Assembly: GCA_009914755.4 (NCBI GenBank)
Contig: CP086569.2
Coordinates: 50,848,001 to 50,912,000, forward strand
Length of the DNA: 64,000 nt
Origin: the human T2T-CHM13v2.0 reference genome, Homo sapiens
Direction of reading: 5' to 3'
Shown here: positions 1 to 64,000 of the stretch, piece by piece
How positions within the stretch are numbered: position 1 is the first letter of the stretch
How the letters are laid out: the number at the start of each line of letters is the position of its first letter
The notes under the pieces: generated by a model
The model's input: the letters and a program-made list of their open reading frames with translations, nothing else
What the model was told of the DNA's origin: nothing
Databases searched by the model: none
Made by a program: the position numbers and the translations under genes

Positions 1-2025
1 ATAACTGCATATGGAAAATACAGAGGATAATTTTTTAAATAACATATTTTGAAAGCCTTAACTAGTAATTTGAAGAGTTGGCATTTGAAAGGCCAGTATG
101 AATATACCTTCAAAGCAGCAACACAGGTTCCCCATGAGAATAAGCAAACACAGGGGAAATAAAAACACAAAGGTTCAATCTCTTCTGACCTTTGAAAGAC
201 ACAGCACAGACAGTGGTCCTTAGGACGAAGAGCAGGAGACCCCTAATTCCGTCACCATGGCGATAGGGCATAAACATTGCTGGGTGAGGGCACAATCCAC
301 ATTGTGAGGTCCAACTGCTGCCAGGAAGACAGGAGTGCTTTTACATAGACCGAAAGGTCATTGAAGGCTCAGAGTTTTGTTTCAAGAACTGAATCCCAAG
401 CCCACACGTTATTAGGCTGCGCTTCTTAAAACAAGTTATGAGATGGGAAAAAGGGCACCCACAAACATACGTATACATTATGTATATAATAATATACAGT
501 ATCATATATATAATAAATATAACCTATGTATAATATTGTTTTACATCCTGCATCTTATGTTATATATATTGTATAAAATATAATAATTGATAATATATAA
601 GTTTTATAATTATACAATAAGACATACAGTATATATTATAATTTATGACATTTATAGTATATGTTATATATCATATATAGAATATATTATACGGTTAATA
701 TACGTATTAAACATAAATTATACATTATATATATTATATATAATATATCTGTTATATATAATACCCATTATGCATAATATATATATTATGTCTATGTTAT
801 ATATAGTATAAAACAACATATAATAATATATAATTGTATATATAAAATGCCACATATAATATATATTATATTTTCTAACATATGTAATATATATTATATA
901 TTATATATAATACGTTGTATGTATAATACCTATATTAAATATATGTTATATGACTATGTTATTAATTACATGTCACATGTGTTATATATTATATAGTTTA
1001 CATAGAATATACCGGTTACATACAATATATACTATGTTACGTATAATGTATAATTTATTACATGTAAAATAAAGAATGCAATATATTATGTATAATTTAT
1101 AATATACAATATGTGGAATGTGATATATATAACATATAATATATGATATATGATATACAGTATATGATATATAACATACAATATATGATTCCTAATATAT
1201 ATGGTATACAATATATATTTTATGATATGTATTCTATATGTTTTATATTCTGTTATATATAACTATTTGAAATTATATATAACTGTATAATATTTTATGT
1301 AAATATGTAATATAATATATATAACTATATAATATATTATATATAACTATATATTATGTTATATATTCTTTTATAACATAATTTACATAAAATATCATAA
1401 TATAATATATATTATATTATTTCATATTACATAATATATATTACATATCACCCAATATAACTATCATACATAATATTATAATATAGATTATATTATGTTA
1501 TGTTAAATATCATATATATCATGTATCATATATTCTATAATATATATTACACATTATATAATATGTATGTTGTCTATTATGTGATATATATAACTCTATA
1601 TATAATTATATTTTTATACATATAACTAGATAAACATGTAATTCTACATATTTTCATTTATAATATGTAGAATTATATAATCATATATAATTATTTATAT
1701 TCTATAAAAAATTTTATCATTATATAAATTATAATATATAAAAATTATAATATGTACTACAAATATATATACTATATATCATATATGATATAGTACCTTT
1801 GTTATATATCATAATACATATAAATGTGTATTATGTTATCTATAATTATATAATTTCATATATAAGATGTATAATATGTATCATATATTATATATGTTAT
1901 GTAATATATATAGAATATATAAGATGACACAGGATAAATATTATATACTATGACATATAAAATATATGAGGTTATATGTTACATATAAGGCATAGCACAT
2001 AACATGTAATATATATCATATATAA

Positions 2026-2323
2026 TTTTTTTTTAGACAGAATCTTGTCCTGTTGCACAGGGTGGGGTACAATGGCGCCATCTTTGCTCACTGCAACTTC
2101 TGCCTCACGGGTCCAAGCGATTGTCCTCCCTCAGCCTCCCAGGTAGCTGGGACTACACCACACTGGGACTACACCAGCTGCCACCATGCCTAGCTAATTT
2201 TTTGGATTTTTAGTAGTGACAGCCTTTCACTGTATTGGCCAGGATGGTCTTGATCTCTTCACCTTGTGATCCCCTTGCCTTGGCCTCCAAATTTGCTGGG
2301 ATTACAGGCCTGAGCCAAGATCC
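2026..2323 (-). mobile_element. Alu (older S/J-like subfamily), unit 1 copy
   Basis: The plus strand reads as the reverse complement of Alu: 'tttttttttagacag..gctcactgcaac..cctcagcctcccaggtagctgggactaca..ctaatttttt..ttcactgtattggccaggatggtcttgatctc..ggcctccaaatttgctgggattacaggcctgagcc'. The poly-T at the low coordinate is the poly-A tail on the minus strand. From memory, 'ggtccaagcgattgtcctcc' is S/J-like rather than AluY. Confidence 0.9.
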
Positions 2324-2884
2324 ATATTTTTTAAATGAAAAAAAATTTCAAAGGTACTCTGCTTGGTACAATAATCAAATGCATAAACTCAGGAATAAAA
2401 CATAACCATGAAACCTACTTATAACTGCATATGGAAAATACAGAGGATAATTTTTTAAATAACATATTTTGAAAGCCTTAACTAGTAATTTGAAGAGTTG
2501 GCATTTGAAAGGCCAGTATGAATATACCTTCAAAGCAGCAACACAGGTTCCCCATGAGAAAAAGCAAACACAGGGAAAATAAAACCACAAAGGTTCAATC
2601 TCTTCTGACCTTTGAAAGACACAGCACAGACAGTGGTCCTTAGGACGAAGAGCAGGAGACCCCTAATTCCGTCACCATGGCGATAGGGCATAAACATTGC
2701 TGGGTGAGGGCACAATCCACATTGTGAGGTCCAACTGCTGCCAGGAAGACAGGAGTGCTTTTACATAGACCGAAAGGTCATTGAAGGCTCAGAGTTTTGT
2801 TTCAAGAACTGAATCCCAAGCCCACACGTTATTAGGCTGCGCTTCTTAAAACAAGTTATGAGATGGGAAAAAGGGCACCCACAA
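2324..2884. repeat. Representative DYZ2 unit, GC-normal 'unique' segment of about 560–575 bp (shown for unit 2; the same segment occurs in every unit)
   Basis: The non-AT-rich sequence 'atattttttaaatgaaaaaaaatttcaaagg...gggaaaaagggcacccacaaacatac' lies between the Alu 5' end and the AT-rich segment. It contains the recurring 61-aa pseudo-ORF. CpG content is low. Confidence 0.8.
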
Positions 2885-61800: not shown

Positions 61801-62294
61801 CGAAGGGAAAAGACTGCAATGGAAAGGTCTCGAATGGAATGGAAATTAATGGAATGGAATGGAATCGAATGAAATGGAGTCAAAAGGAATGGAATCGAAT
61901 GGCAAGAAATCGAATGTAATGGAATCGCAAGGAATTGATGTGAACGGAACGGAATGGAATGGAATCCAAAGGAATGGAATAGAATGGAATGGAATCGAAT
62001 GGAAAGGACTCGAATGGAAATCACTCGAATAGAATGCAATTTAATAAAATAGGATCAAATGTAATGGAATGGAATGGAAAGGAATCGAAACGAAAGGAAT
62101 GGAGACAGATGGAATGGAATGGAACAGAGAGCAATGGTATAGAATGGAATGGAATCATCTGGAATGGAATTGAATGGAATGGAATAATATGAAATGGAAT
62201 GGAATGGAATGGAATGGAATGCCCTTGAATTAAATGGACTGGAATGGAATGGACTCGAACAGAGTGGAATGGAAAGTGTTGAGATAGAATGGAA
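58816..62294. repeat. DYZ1 higher-order unit D (3,479 bp, with small indels)
   Basis: The anchor recurs at 62,295. Relative to unit C there is a 15-bp deletion near 59,440, a 15-bp insertion ('ELNGM' repeat) near 60,760 and a deletion of about 70 bp near 61,120. Confidence 0.8.
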
Positions 62295-64000
62295 TGGACT
62301 CGTTTGGAATGGTCTAGTATGCAATGCAATCGACTGGCAGGGAATCAAAAGGAATGTAATCGAATGGATTGGACTGGAATGCAATGGACTCGAATATATT
62401 GGAAACGGAATGCAAAGGAATGGAATGGAATAGTATGGAATGGAATGGAAAGGAATGGAGTGGAATAGACTAGAGTAGAATGGAATGGACTTGAAAGCAA
62501 TGGACTGGAATGGAACTTTCTTGAATGGACTGGAATCAAACGGAATGGAATGCAATGCAATCATATGACATGTAATAAATTAGAATGAAAGAGAATCAAA
62601 TGGAATTGAATCGAATGGAATCGAATGGATTGGAAAGGAATAGAATGGATTGGAATGGAATTGACTCAAATGGAATGGACTAGAATGGAATGGATTCGAA
62701 TGGAAGGCAAAGGAATGGAATCTATTGGAATGGACTGTAATGGAATGGAATGGAAGGGATTGGAATGGACTCGAATGGAATGGACTGCAATAGAAAGGAT
62801 TAGAATGGAATGAAAAAGAATTGAATGGAATAGAACAGAATGGAATCAAATCGAATGAAATGGAATGGAATAGAAAGGAATGGAATGAAATGGAATGGAA
62901 AGGATTCGAATGGAATGCAATCGAATGGAATGGAATCGAACGGAATGGAATAAAATGGAAGAAAACTGGCAAGAAATGGAATCGAAATGAACGGAGTGTT
63001 ATGGAACAGACTCAAAAGGAATTGAATGTAATAGAATGGAGTGGAGTGGACTCGAATATAATGGACTGGAATGGAATGAAATCACATGGAATGGGAACGA
63101 ATGGAATGGAATGGAAAGGAATGGAATCGAATGGAAAGGAATCGAATGGAAGGGAATGAAATTGAATCAACAGGAATGGAAGGGAATAGAATAGACGGTA
63201 ATGGAATGGACTCGAATAGAATGGACACGAATGCTCAAATTGAATGGACTCGAATGGAATGGAAACGAAAGGAATGTCATCGAATGGAATTGAATCGATT
63301 GGAATGAAATCGCATAGAATGGAGTGGAATCAAATGGAATTGAATCGAAAGGAAAGGAAGCAAGTGGACTGAAATGAAATGGAATGGAATTGAATGGAAA
63401 GTAATGCAATGGAATAGAATGGAACGAAATTTCACGGAATGGAATCAAACTGAATGGAATGAAATCAATGGAATCAAATCAAATGGAATGGAAAGGAATT
63501 GAATGGAGTAGATTGGATTGGATGGGATTGGAATGAAATGTACTGGAAAGGACTCGAATTTCATGAAACGGAATGGAATGAATTGGAACGGAATGGACTC
63601 GAATGGAATGGAATGTCATGGAATGGCATCAAATGGAATGGCATCAAATGGAATGGAATCGAATGCAATGGAATGCTATGGAATGAATGGAATGCATTGG
63701 AATGGAATGTCCTCTAATGGAATGGATTCGAGTGGAATGGAATCGAATATAATGGAGTCGAATGAAATGGAATTGAAAGGAATGGGATCGAATACAATGG
63801 AATATACTGGAATGTAACGTAATGAACTCGAATGTAATTGACTGGAATGGAATGTACATGAATGGAATGTAATCGAATGGAAAGTAATCCAATGGAATAG
63901 AATCTAATGCAATAAAATCGACTCAAATAGAGTAGAATGTAATGGAATGGAGTGCAGTGCAATGGAATGGAATGGAATGGAATGCAATGGAATGGAATGG
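62295..64000. repeat. DYZ1 higher-order unit E (partial, runs off the window)
   Basis: It continues the higher-order repeat and is collinear with units B–D. Confidence 0.8.

What the first reader, a model, noticed from the sequence alone, without database searches (positions are those of the whole stretch)
1..64000. The window is a DYZ2 (HSat1B) to DYZ1 (HSat3) block boundary, most likely human Yq12 heterochromatin
Two independent signatures match the classical male-specific satellites. The first is a 2.42-kb unit made of a unique segment, an AT-rich segment and one Alu, with an in-silico HaeIII fragment of 2,139 bp. The second is an HSat3 array with a 3,544-bp higher-order repeat and one GGCC per unit. 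From memory, alternating DYZ1 and DYZ2 blocks are the known organisation of Yq12. No gene-like content is present. This corrects the prior expectation that a novel system is here, because I find none.
Basis: partly seen in the sequence, partly recalled or inferred. Interest (0 to 1): 0.5.

Follow-up and report, generated by a model that had tools for sequence, protein, structure and literature searches.

The report
Human Y satellite block boundary (DYZ2/DYZ1)
The window is ordinary, already well-described human Y-chromosome long-arm heterochromatin: about 20.5 copies of the 2.42-kb DYZ2 satellite run into an array of the 3.5-kb DYZ1 satellite, and it contains no gene or novel system.

Summary
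Positions 1-49652 hold 20 full units and one partial unit of a 2,420-bp tandem repeat. Each unit has a GC-richer segment, an 85-87% AT segment and a 5'-truncated antisense Alu that is 81% identical to AluY. This matches published DYZ2/HSat1B in consensus length (2,420 bp), in the 'ACATACG' heptamer and in GC content (24.5%). From 49653 onward the sequence is (GGAAT)n-derived HSat3. After about 0.8 kb of degenerate repeats it settles into a 3,544/3,549-bp higher-order repeat with one HaeIII site per copy.

Of 14 published subfamily-diagnostic 24-mers, only the Y-specific HSat3A6 marker matches (6 exact hits). The chr15-type HSat3A5 marker does not match. Seven of eight published DYZ1 primers map at their published positions.

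Independent human-contaminant contigs in bacterial and metagenome assemblies match at 95-99%. One of them shows the same DYZ1-DYZ2 adjacency and relative orientation.

Unit divergence rises from about 0.3% in the DYZ2 core to about 10% at the edge, as published for Yq12 arrays. The ORFs are pentamer-frame artefacts.

Minor correction: the usual DYZ2 HaeIII fragment is 2,146 bp, and 2,139 bp occurs once.

I could not align the window directly to a chrY assembly. Verdict: already known, low interest.

The parts
1..49652 (+). DYZ2 / HSat1B tandem array: 20 full units plus a 21st unit truncated at about unit position 1380-1399. Unit starts: 1, 2421, 4834, 7254, 9674, 12094, 14514, 16934, 19354, 21774, 24194, 26614, 29034, 31454, 33874, 36293, 38711, 41127, 43517, 45903, 48290.
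   Evidence: k-mer spacing peak at 2,420 bp; blastn segmentation; MAFFT consensus of 2,420 bp with 24.5% GC
21774..22243 (+). Example unit u10: GC-richer 'HSATI' module (unit positions 1-470, 42% GC). It ends with the ACATACG heptamer at unit position 465.
   Evidence: heptamer described by Hallast et al.
22244..23798 (+). Example unit u10: AT-rich module (unit positions 471-2025). It is 85-87% AT across units and contains an internal imperfect duplication of about 230 bp.
23799..24090 (-). Example unit u10: Alu-derived module (unit positions 2026-2317), antisense. It covers AluY positions 13-289, so it is 5'-truncated. It is 80.9% identical to AluY and has a 15-bp internal insertion.
24091..24193 (+). 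Example unit u10: short tail (unit positions 2318-2420) joining the Alu to the next HSATI module.
7254..36292 (+). Homogenised core of the DYZ2 array (u4-u15), 0.2-0.6% from the window consensus. u5, u6 and u7 (9674-16933) are identical. u12 and u14 differ at 1 column and u11 and u13 at 6, against 12 for adjacent units (u11 vs u12, u12 vs u13). This shows recent one-unit and two-unit duplications.
45903..49652 (+). Diverged edge units u20 and partial u21. Each is about 10% from the consensus and about 9% from the other.
49652..49653 (.). DYZ2-to-DYZ1 junction: ...CCATAATATATCATA | TGGACTCCTTTGGAATGG... It lies inside the AT-rich module of DYZ2.
   Evidence: local alignments to the consensus and to u20
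49653..50431 (+). Degenerate HSat3 transition zone. It is 70-82% identical to the higher-order repeat, barely above the roughly 71% out-of-register background, and the expected HaeIII site is missing.
50432..53812 (+). DYZ1 (HSat3A6) higher-order repeat copy 1 (HOR positions 163-3544), 97.8% identical to copy 2. The published DYZ1 strand, (TTCCA)n, is the window's minus strand.
53813..57356 (+). DYZ1 higher-order repeat copy 2, 3,544 bp from HaeIII site to HaeIII site.
57357..60905 (+). DYZ1 higher-order repeat copy 3, 3,549 bp, 97.4% identical to copy 2.
60906..64000 (+). DYZ1 higher-order repeat copy 4, cut off by the end of the window, 97.2% identical to copy 2.
53677..53830 (.). Predicted 154-bp amplicon of the classical DYZ1 Y1.1/Y1.2 primer pair, spanning the HaeIII site. 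It recurs at 57221-57374 and 60770-60923.
   Evidence: The primer sequences and the expected amplicon size are recalled from memory and were not found in the paper library.

Best explanation
The window is a stretch of human Yq12 constitutive heterochromatin that crosses one boundary between a DYZ2 (HSat1B) block and a DYZ1 (HSat3A6) block.

It encodes nothing. It is two tandem-repeat arrays that expand, contract and homogenise by unequal sister-chromatid or intrachromatid exchange, tandem duplication and gene conversion. These processes act most efficiently in the interior of each array. Interior units therefore stay nearly identical, while units at the array edge escape homogenisation and decay.

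The DYZ2 array ends inside the AT-rich module of a unit. The DYZ1 array starts with about 0.8 kb of decayed pentamer repeats before the regular 3.5-kb higher-order repeat appears.

Shown here: the repeat anatomy, the subfamily identity, the divergence pattern, and the recent one-unit and two-unit duplications. Inferred from the literature: the recombination mechanism and the Yq12 location. Any cellular role, such as heterochromatin bulk or a TEAD/NFAT-type binding platform on the GGAATG-dense strand, is speculative. Published human genetics suggests little or no role in male development.
For: DYZ2 identity:
- The consensus is 2,420 bp and 14 of 20 units are exactly 2,420 bp. This equals the Hallast et al. 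consensus length.
- ACATACG is present in 19 of 21 units.
- GC is 24.5%.
- The Alu is 80.9% identical to AluY and 5'-truncated, as described.
- The AT-rich module is 85-87% AT.

DYZ1 identity:
- The higher-order repeat is 3,544/3,549 bp with one HaeIII site per copy.
- The HSat3A6 diagnostic 24-mer has 6 exact hits. The other 13 subfamily markers have none, and the chr15-type A5 marker comes no closer than 3 mismatches.
- Published primers A-G map in every copy. C and F land exactly at 1668-1685 and 1669-1686.
- GC is 38.5% and CpG density is 1 per 36 bp, against 38% and 1 per 35 published.

Independent copies:
- Six 'bacterial' contigs that carry the DYZ1 marker align at 95-99%.
- Twenty-three metagenome stretches carry DYZ2, with core-type units at 95-99%.
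- Contig BNJU01004413.1 (L016 plus L010) joins DYZ1 (96% identical) directly to DYZ2 in the same relative orientation.

Dynamics:
- Core units are 0.2-0.6% from the consensus and edge units about 10%.
- The first ~0.8 kb of HSat3 is 70-82% identical to the HOR.
- Three consecutive units are identical and there is a two-unit pattern.
- Hallast et al. report the same contrast between array centre and periphery. Rhie et al. attribute Yq12 patterns to unequal exchange.
Against: - No direct alignment to a chrY assembly was possible, so the chromosomal placement rests on published markers and on the DYZ1/DYZ2 adjacency.
- DYZ2/HSat1B alone is not Y-specific. It also occurs on acrocentric short arms.
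- The divergence pattern is not a simple one-sided gradient. Units u1-u3 at the left end of the window are also 2-2.6% diverged.
- In-register DYZ1 copies are 97.2-97.8% identical. This is slightly below the '>98%' that Rhie et al. quote for most units, although they also report higher divergence in peripheral blocks.
- The exact junction 32-mer was not found in the metagenome contigs.
Confidence: 0.95

Rival explanations
1. An HSat1B-to-HSat3 boundary on an acrocentric short arm, most plausibly chr15p. There an HSat1B array lies next to a large HSat3 array, with a block of diverged HSat3 in between.
For: The chr15 p-arm layout (HSat1B, then diverged HSat3, then HSat3) is reported in 10.64898/2025.12.16.694519. 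It resembles the window's layout of DYZ2, then 0.8 kb of degenerate HSat3, then the HOR. HSat1B occurs on acrocentric arms. The chr15 HSat3A5 repeat has a 1.8/3.6-kb period (Table S1 of PMC4022460).
Against: - The HSat3A5 diagnostic 24-mer has no match with fewer than 3 mismatches, while the Y-specific HSat3A6 marker has 6 exact matches.
- There is no spacing peak near 1.8 kb among the top k-mer spacings.
- Seven of eight published DYZ1 primers map at their published positions.
- The DYZ2 unit length equals the Y consensus of 2,420 bp, and the core units are 99.4-99.8% homogeneous. HSat1B on chr15 and chr21 is the main source of low-identity (<95%) allelic alignments.
Confidence: 0.02
2. Y-chromosome heterochromatin of a non-human great ape rather than human.
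For: (AATGG)n satellites of DYZ1/DYZ17/DYZ18 type have been mapped to the Y chromosomes of other great apes, and the gorilla Yq also carries heterochromatin (PMC7767330).
Against: - Human-derived sequences match exactly or nearly so: the HSat3A6 24-mer, primers C, D, E and F with 0 mismatches at their published coordinates, the 2,420-bp human consensus length and the ACATACG heptamer.
- Contaminant contigs in unrelated bacterial and metagenome assemblies, whose likeliest source is human DNA, are 95-99% identical.
- I found no report of DYZ2/HSat1B blocks alternating with a 3.5-kb HSat3 higher-order repeat in another ape.
Confidence: 0.015
3. The junction is an assembly chimera that wrongly joins two real satellites.
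For: Yq12 is one of the hardest regions to assemble. The junction 32-mer was not found in the metagenome contigs.
Against: - Divergence rises towards the junction on both sides: the last two DYZ2 units are about 10% diverged and the first 0.8 kb of HSat3 is degenerate. That is expected for a real, old array edge and not for a mis-join of interior units.
- An independent 54.6-kb contig shows DYZ1 directly next to DYZ2 in the same relative orientation.
- Alternating blocks are the documented structure.
- The null scan is weak evidence, because junctions are about 100 times rarer than repeat units.
Confidence: 0.01
4. A functional gene or RNA element is hidden in the array, for example a coding ORF in the pentamer array or a structured RNA in the GC-richer DYZ2 module.
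For: There are 22 ORFs of 120-308 aa in 50-64 kb. An Rfam mir-1268 hit has E = 6e-4.
Against: - (GGAAT)n/(ATTCC)n has no stop codon in several reading frames, so long ORFs arise mechanically. The translation is an 'IPFHS' repeat, and the only Pfam hit is a low-complexity match at 30.6 bits against a cutoff of 105.
- There are no ORFs of 120 aa or more in DYZ2.
- The mir-1268 hit scores 33.9 bits against a gathering threshold of 83 and lies inside the Alu. From memory, the mir-1268 family is Alu-derived.
Confidence: 0.01

Closest known systems
DYZ2 / HSat1B (human Yq12, 2.4-kb composite satellite)
   Same: Unit length (2,420-bp consensus; 2,413-bp variant also present), module order (GC-richer HSATI, AT-rich simple repeat, 5'-truncated AluY-derived segment about 19% diverged), ACATACG heptamer, 24.5% GC, and the contrast between a homogeneous centre and a diverged edge (literature).
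   Different: Nothing substantive. CpG density is 1 per 121 bp here against about 1 per 150 bp published. The three units next to the two edge units carry deletions of about 30 bp (2,386-2,390 bp).
DYZ1 / HSat3A6 (human Y-specific 3.5-3.6-kb HSat3 higher-order repeat)
   Same: Pentamer origin, one HaeIII site per unit, HSat3A6 diagnostic 24-mer, published primer map, 38.5% GC, CpG density of 1 per 36 bp.
   Different: Units are 3,544/3,549 bp rather than the 3,564 bp of the classical clone. Indels in multiples of 5 bp (15-bp, for example) are documented between copies. Copies here are 97.2-97.8% identical, consistent with a position near a block edge.
chr15 short-arm HSat1B / HSat3A5 (D15Z1) boundary
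   Same: The same two satellite families lie next to each other with a zone of diverged HSat3 between them.
   Different: The HSat3 subfamily differs: the A5 marker is absent and the A6 marker is present. There is no 1.8-kb period. The HSat1B here is highly homogenised, as on the Y.

Membership tests
DYZ2 / HSat1B | Tandem unit of about 2.4-2.5 kb; modal lengths 2,413/2,420 bp; final consensus 2,420 bp (Hallast et al.) | tested here: met
   14 of 20 units are 2,420 bp, one is 2,413 bp, and the MAFFT majority consensus is 2,420 bp. Literature read.
DYZ2 / HSat1B | Three-part unit: AluY-derived segment about 20% diverged and 5'-truncated; AT-rich part over 85% AT; GC-richer (HSATI) part | tested here: met
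AT-rich module 85.4-87.5% AT. Unit positions 1-470 are 42% GC. Literature.
DYZ2 / HSat1B | 'ACATACG' heptamer at the junction of HSATI and the AT-rich repeat | tested here: met
   Present at unit position 465 in 19 of 21 units. The two exceptions carry point changes.
DYZ2 / HSat1B | Base composition of about 24% GC and about 1 CpG per 150 bp | tested here: met
   24.5% GC and 1 CpG per 121 bp. GC matches. CpG density is about 25% higher than published.
DYZ2 / HSat1B | High identity to the reference DYZ2 consensus or the Dfam HSATI model | not testable with these tools
   No reference consensus or RepeatMasker is available. As a proxy, 23 unlabelled metagenome stretches that carry the DYZ2 marker have core-type units 95-99% identical to the window consensus.
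DYZ1 / HSat3A6 | Derived from the CATTC/GGAAT pentamer | tested here: met
   GGAAT occupies 33% of bases on the + strand and ATTCC occurs 0 times on that strand.
DYZ1 / HSat3A6 | Higher-order repeat of about 3.5-3.6 kb delimited by a single HaeIII site (classical 3.4/3.56-kb male HaeIII band) | tested here: met
   GGCC at 53813, 57357 and 60906 gives 3,544 and 3,549 bp. In-register copies are 97.2-97.8% identical. Definition in PMC3925983.
DYZ1 / HSat3A6 | Carries HSat3A6-specific 24-mers and not those of other HSat2/3 subfamilies (Altemose 2014) | tested here: met
   The most common A6-specific 24-mer has 6 exact hits. The other 13 markers have 0 exact hits. Only one marker per subfamily could be tested, because the stored supplement is cut before the A6 list.
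DYZ1 / HSat3A6 | Published DYZ1 primer sites in the published order, strand and position relative to the HaeIII site | tested here: met
   Primers A-G are found in every copy with 0-2 mismatches. C and F are at exactly the published coordinates, and the others are within 0-30 bp. H differs by a 1-nt indel at the GGCC (Table 5 of PMC3925983).
Yq12 heterochromatin (chromosomal location) | DYZ1 and DYZ2 arrays directly adjacent (alternating blocks) | tested here: met
   Junction at 49652/49653. The same adjacency occurs in the independent contig L016 plus L010.
Yq12 heterochromatin (chromosomal location) | Best genome-wide alignment falls on chrY q12 of a complete human assembly | not testable with these tools
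chr15p HSat1B / HSat3A5 boundary (considered and rejected) | HSat3 of subfamily A5 with a 1.8/3.6-kb period | tested here: not met
   The best match to the A5 marker has 3 mismatches. No spacing near 1.8 kb is among the top k-mer spacings.

The most novel reading that the evidence does not exclude
DYZ1 blocks may all sit at one fixed site inside a DYZ2 unit. In the window the DYZ2 array stops at unit position about 1380-1399. In an independent human-contaminant contig (L016) DYZ2 resumes after a DYZ1 block at position 1359. The two junction types therefore cut the 2,420-bp unit within about 40 bp of each other, or within about 125 bp if the unexplained 87-bp linker in L016 is decayed DYZ2.

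If this holds at all of the 34-86 arrays reported per Y, every junction would be identical by descent from a single ancestral insertion of HSat3 into one DYZ2 unit. The alternating pattern would then arise purely by amplification of a composite DYZ1+DYZ2 segment, and the near 1:1 unit ratio could follow from that too.

I did not find this stated in the papers I read. It may already be evident to anyone holding the T2T-Y annotation.
Probability: 0.4. Interest if true: 0.25.

Novelty: already known. Interest (0 to 1): 0.06.

Why it matters
It matters mainly as a negative result: this window holds no new biological system. [quoted passage not shown]

It does illustrate, at single-unit resolution, the published model in which satellite arrays homogenise in their interior and decay at their edges.

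It also illustrates a practical point. The same Y satellites contaminate bacterial and metagenome assemblies, which I confirmed with six GTDB genome contigs and 23 metagenome stretches. Windows like this one can therefore turn up in scans of supposedly microbial data.

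Tried and rejected
- **Fuzzy-regex segmentation** timed out. I replaced it with blastn.
- **Classical primers in the literature.** Searches for the Y1.1/Y1.2 primer sequences found nothing, and a 'DYZ1 154 bp' search led to an unrelated STS assay. Those primers stay memory-based. I replaced them with the published primer table of PMC3925983.
- **FISH probe primers.** The T2T-Y preprint text holds none, and the Nature version is not held.
- **Full HSat3A6 k-mer list.** Dataset S2 of Altemose 2014 is cut off within the HSat2 subfamilies in the stored copy, so the 2,696 A6-specific 24-mers could not be used.
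- **Published DYZ2 oligos.** A broad search found none that were usable.
- **Junction 32-mer** in metagenome contigs gave 0 hits. A positive control showed that the collection does hold DYZ2, so the null most likely reflects how rare junction copies are, or variation between them.
- **Rfam on one unit** gave only sub-threshold hits.
- **The ~12-kb GC periodicity** is aliasing between the 2,000-bp bins and the 2,420-bp unit. It is not a real feature.
- **Recurrence of the edge units.** u20 has a 95% relative in L018, but u21 and the degenerate HSat3 zone have no special match. This was inconclusive.

Full report
**Observation**

The window falls into two compositional domains. Positions 1 to about 49,650 are 20-28% GC with no strand skew. 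From about 49,650 to 64,000 the sequence is 38-39% GC with strong G and A excess on the + strand.

Spacings of repeated 20-mers in the first domain peak sharply at 2,420 bp (27,662 k-mers). Spacings of repeated 24-mers in the second domain peak at 3,544 bp.

Segmentation with blastn, using the first 470 bp as an anchor, gives 21 unit starts. Unit lengths are 2,420 bp (x14), 2,413 (x1), 2,419, 2,418, 2,416, 2,390, 2,386 and 2,387, and the last unit is truncated.

HaeIII sites in the first domain produce a regular pattern of 2,146 + 45 + 25 + 204 bp per unit. The common fragment is 2,146 bp, which occurs 13 times.

In the second domain GGCC occurs once per repeat, at 53813, 57357 and 60906, giving 3,544 and 3,549 bp.

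**Anatomy of the 2.42-kb unit**

A MAFFT majority consensus of the 20 full units is exactly 2,420 bp, with 24.5% GC and one CpG per 121 bp. The unit has four parts:
- a 42% GC segment (unit positions 1-470);
- an AT-rich segment (471-2025) that is 85-87% AT across units and contains an internal imperfect duplication of about 230 bp;
- an Alu on the minus strand (2026-2317);
- a 103-bp tail.

The Alu aligns to AluY positions 13-289 at 80.9% identity and has a 15-bp internal insertion. Rfam sees only a sub-threshold match to the mir-1268 family within the Alu, on the minus strand.

These features match the published descriptions of DYZ2/HSat1B.
[quoted passage not shown] Their modal unit is 2,413 bp, their final consensus is 2,420 bp after adding the heptamer 'ACATACG' at the HSATI/AT-rich junction, and GC is 24% (10.1101/2022.12.01.518658).

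That heptamer sits at unit position 465 in 19 of the window's 21 units.

**Anatomy of the pentamer array**

From 49653 the + strand is (GGAAT)n-derived. GGAAT occupies 33% of bases and ATTCC never occurs on that strand.

In-register higher-order repeat (HOR) copies lie at 50432-53812, 53813-57356, 57357-60905 and 60906-64000. They are 97.2-97.8% identical to one another, against about 71% for out-of-register alignments. GC is 38.5% and CpG density is 1 per 36 bp. Hallast et al. give 38% and 1 per 35 bp for DYZ1.

**Which HSat3, and which chromosome**

This question decides the interpretation, because HSat1B and HSat3 also occur on acrocentric short arms. The chr15 p-arm has an HSat1B array next to an HSat3 array with a block of diverged HSat3 between them (10.64898/2025.12.16.694519). 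That layout superficially resembles the window. The chr15 array is subfamily HSat3A5, with a 1.8/3.6-kb period (PMC4022460 Table S1). I applied three tests that rest on published sequences.

1. *Subfamily markers.* Altemose et al. [quoted passage not shown] Only the HSat3A6 marker, assigned to the Y, occurs in the window. It has six exact hits on the minus strand. The other 13 have none, and the HSat3A5 marker comes no closer than three mismatches.
2. *Primer map.* PMC3925983 Table 5 lists eight primers with their positions in the 3,564-bp DYZ1 HaeIII unit. Primers A-G are found in every HOR copy on the expected strand.
   - C and F lie at exactly the published coordinates (1668-1685 and 1669-1686).
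   - D lies at 2564-2583 or 5 bp away.
   - B, E and G lie within 15-30 bp of their published positions.
   - A lies at -34..-14, against a published position of 35-16 upstream of the HaeIII site.
   - H differs only by a 1-nt indel at the GGCC.
3. *Period.* No spacing near 1.8 kb appears among the top k-mer spacings.

In addition, the classical Y1.1/Y1.2 DYZ1 primers match with 0-1 mismatches and predict a 154-bp product over the HaeIII site in three copies. I recalled those primer sequences and the expected product size from memory and could not find them in the paper library.

Hallast et al. treat DYZ1 as a Y-specific motif and DYZ2 as Y-unspecific when sorting contigs. The Y assignment therefore rests on the DYZ1 side and on the physical linkage of the two arrays within one window.

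**Independent copies**

Rhie et al. reported that Y satellites contaminate bacterial assemblies, and I used this.
- The DYZ1 HaeIII-site 23-mer occurs in six contigs of GTDB species-representative genomes, including Actinomadura, Streptomyces and Streptosporangium. These contigs align to the window's HOR over their full lengths at 95-99%.
- A DYZ2 30-mer occurs in 23 metagenome stretches. Their core-type units are 95-99% identical to the window consensus.
- Two of those stretches, L016 and L010, are consecutive pieces of one 54.6-kb contig (BNJU01004413.1). It reads as 4.3 kb of DYZ1 (96% identical to window 52604-56893), then an 87-bp linker, then DYZ2 from unit position 1359, then four more units. 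The relative orientation is the same as in the window.

So the adjacency and orientation seen in the window are independently reproduced. The exact junction 32-mer was not found. Junction copies are about a hundred times rarer than repeat units, so that null carries little weight.

**The boundary and array dynamics**

DYZ2 homology ends at 49652, at about unit position 1380-1399, inside the AT-rich module. The next roughly 0.8 kb of HSat3 is only 70-82% identical to the HOR and lacks the expected HaeIII site. Identity then jumps to 95-99%.

On the DYZ2 side, divergence from the consensus varies along the array:

| Units | Divergence from consensus |
|---|---|
| u1-u3 | 2.1-2.6% |
| u4-u15 | 0.2-0.6% |
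| u16-u19 | 1.8-2.6% |
| u20, u21 | about 10% |

Within the core, u5, u6 and u7 are identical over all 2,420 bp. u12 and u14 differ at one column and u11 and u13 at six, against 12 for adjacent units. This indicates very recent single-unit and two-unit (4,840-bp) duplications.

The pattern is the one Hallast et al. describe: units in the middle of an array are more alike, and divergent units accumulate at the periphery. Both papers attribute it to expansion and contraction by unequal exchange. The mechanism itself is inferred from that literature. The window shows only its footprint.

**No genes**

All 22 ORFs of 120 aa or more lie in the pentamer array. The longest translates to an 'IPFHS' repeat, and the only Pfam hit is a low-complexity match far below its cutoff. 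Such ORFs are expected because (GGAAT)n/(ATTCC)n lacks stop codons in several frames.

The HSat3 part carries 45 TEAD-core GGAATG motifs per kb, against 0.4 per kb in DYZ2. This is in line with the motif enrichment reported for HSat3 generally (10.1101/2024.10.22.616524), but it follows from the pentamer itself. Clinical genetics suggests a minor role, or none, for DYZ1/DYZ2 in male development (PMC7016774).

**Rivals**

- *chr15p or another acrocentric arm* is excluded by the subfamily marker, the primer map and the missing 1.8-kb period.
- *A non-human ape Y* is unlikely given the exact matches to human-derived oligos and the human consensus length. It cannot be formally excluded without the ape assemblies, because pentamer satellites map to other ape Y chromosomes too (PMC7767330).
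- *An assembly chimera* is unlikely, because both arrays decay towards the junction and the adjacency is reproduced in an independent contig.

**One observation beyond the textbook**

The window's DYZ2-to-DYZ1 junction and L016's DYZ1-to-DYZ2 junction cut the 2,420-bp DYZ2 unit at nearly the same phase: about 1380-1399 against 1359. This would be expected if DYZ1 blocks occupy one fixed site within a DYZ2 unit and all junctions descend from one ancestral event that was then amplified as composite blocks.

The support is thin. There is one junction of each type, L016 comes from a noisy long-read assembly with an unexplained 87-bp linker, and a coincidence of this size (counting the linker as decayed DYZ2) has roughly a 10% chance under random phases. 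It could be settled in minutes with the T2T-Y annotation.

**Verdict**

The window is a known structure, a DYZ2/DYZ1 block boundary of human Yq12 heterochromatin. Novelty: already known. Interest: low.

Noticed in passing
window 49652/49653; L016 4292-4379: The window's DYZ2-to-DYZ1 junction (DYZ2 unit position ~1380-1399) and an independent contig's DYZ1-to-DYZ2 junction (unit position 1359) interrupt the DYZ2 unit within about 40 bp of each other. The DYZ1 phases are also within about 140-260 bp. This suggests that DYZ1 blocks occupy one fixed site in a DYZ2 unit and that the junctions are identical by descent.
   Followed up: partly
L016 4292-4378: An 87-bp linker between DYZ1 and DYZ2 in contig BNJU01004413.1 contains a GC-rich stretch (GCACCCGTATTCCCGGCGCGG) that matches nothing in the window. 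It may be long-read assembly noise or a real junction-specific insert.
   Followed up: partly
window 9674-16933 and 24194-33873: Three consecutive DYZ2 units (u5-u7) are identical over 2,420 bp. Units u11-u14 show a two-unit (4,840-bp) alternating variant pattern: u12 and u14 differ at 1 column and u11 and u13 at 6, against 12 for adjacent units. These are footprints of very recent tandem duplications.
   Followed up: yes
window 41127-48289: The three units that follow u17 (u18, u19 and the diverged edge unit u20) are about 30 bp shorter than the consensus (2,390, 2,386 and 2,387 bp). u18 and u19 share 34 indel columns against the consensus and differ from each other at only 47 columns, so they form a local length-variant subfamily.
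   Followed up: partly
window 45903-48289; L018: The ~10% diverged edge unit u20 is 95% identical to a unit in an unrelated metagenome contig (L018), against 88-90% to core-type units. This diverged DYZ2 variant therefore recurs elsewhere, either at another Y block edge or in an acrocentric copy. The two cannot be told apart here.
   Followed up: partly
L001-L006 (GTDB genome contigs) and L007-L029 (metagenome contigs): Human Y satellites are present as contaminants in assemblies labelled Actinomadura, Streptomyces, Streptosporangium, Senimuribacter and a Polyangiaceae MAG, and in 23 stretches of metagenome contigs (21 distinct contigs). This confirms the contamination issue that Rhie et al. 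raised.
   Followed up: yes
L019, L020, L011, L009: These metagenome contigs join DYZ2 fragments to non-DYZ2 sequence of 34-40% GC. They could be chimeric assemblies or other human flanks.
   Followed up: no
window 38500-38600: Unit u16 has lost one of the three closely spaced Alu-internal HaeIII sites, which gives a single 2,189-bp fragment in place of 2,146 + 45 bp.
   Followed up: partly
window 1-48000 (table): The apparent ~12-kb oscillation of GC content in 2-kb bins is aliasing between the bin size and the 2,420-bp unit. It is not a real higher-order structure.
   Followed up: yes
window 49653-64000: The TEAD-core motif GGAATG occurs 45 times per kb in the HSat3 part against 0.4 per kb in DYZ2. 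This follows directly from the pentamer and is consistent with published motif-enrichment work on HSat3.
   Followed up: partly
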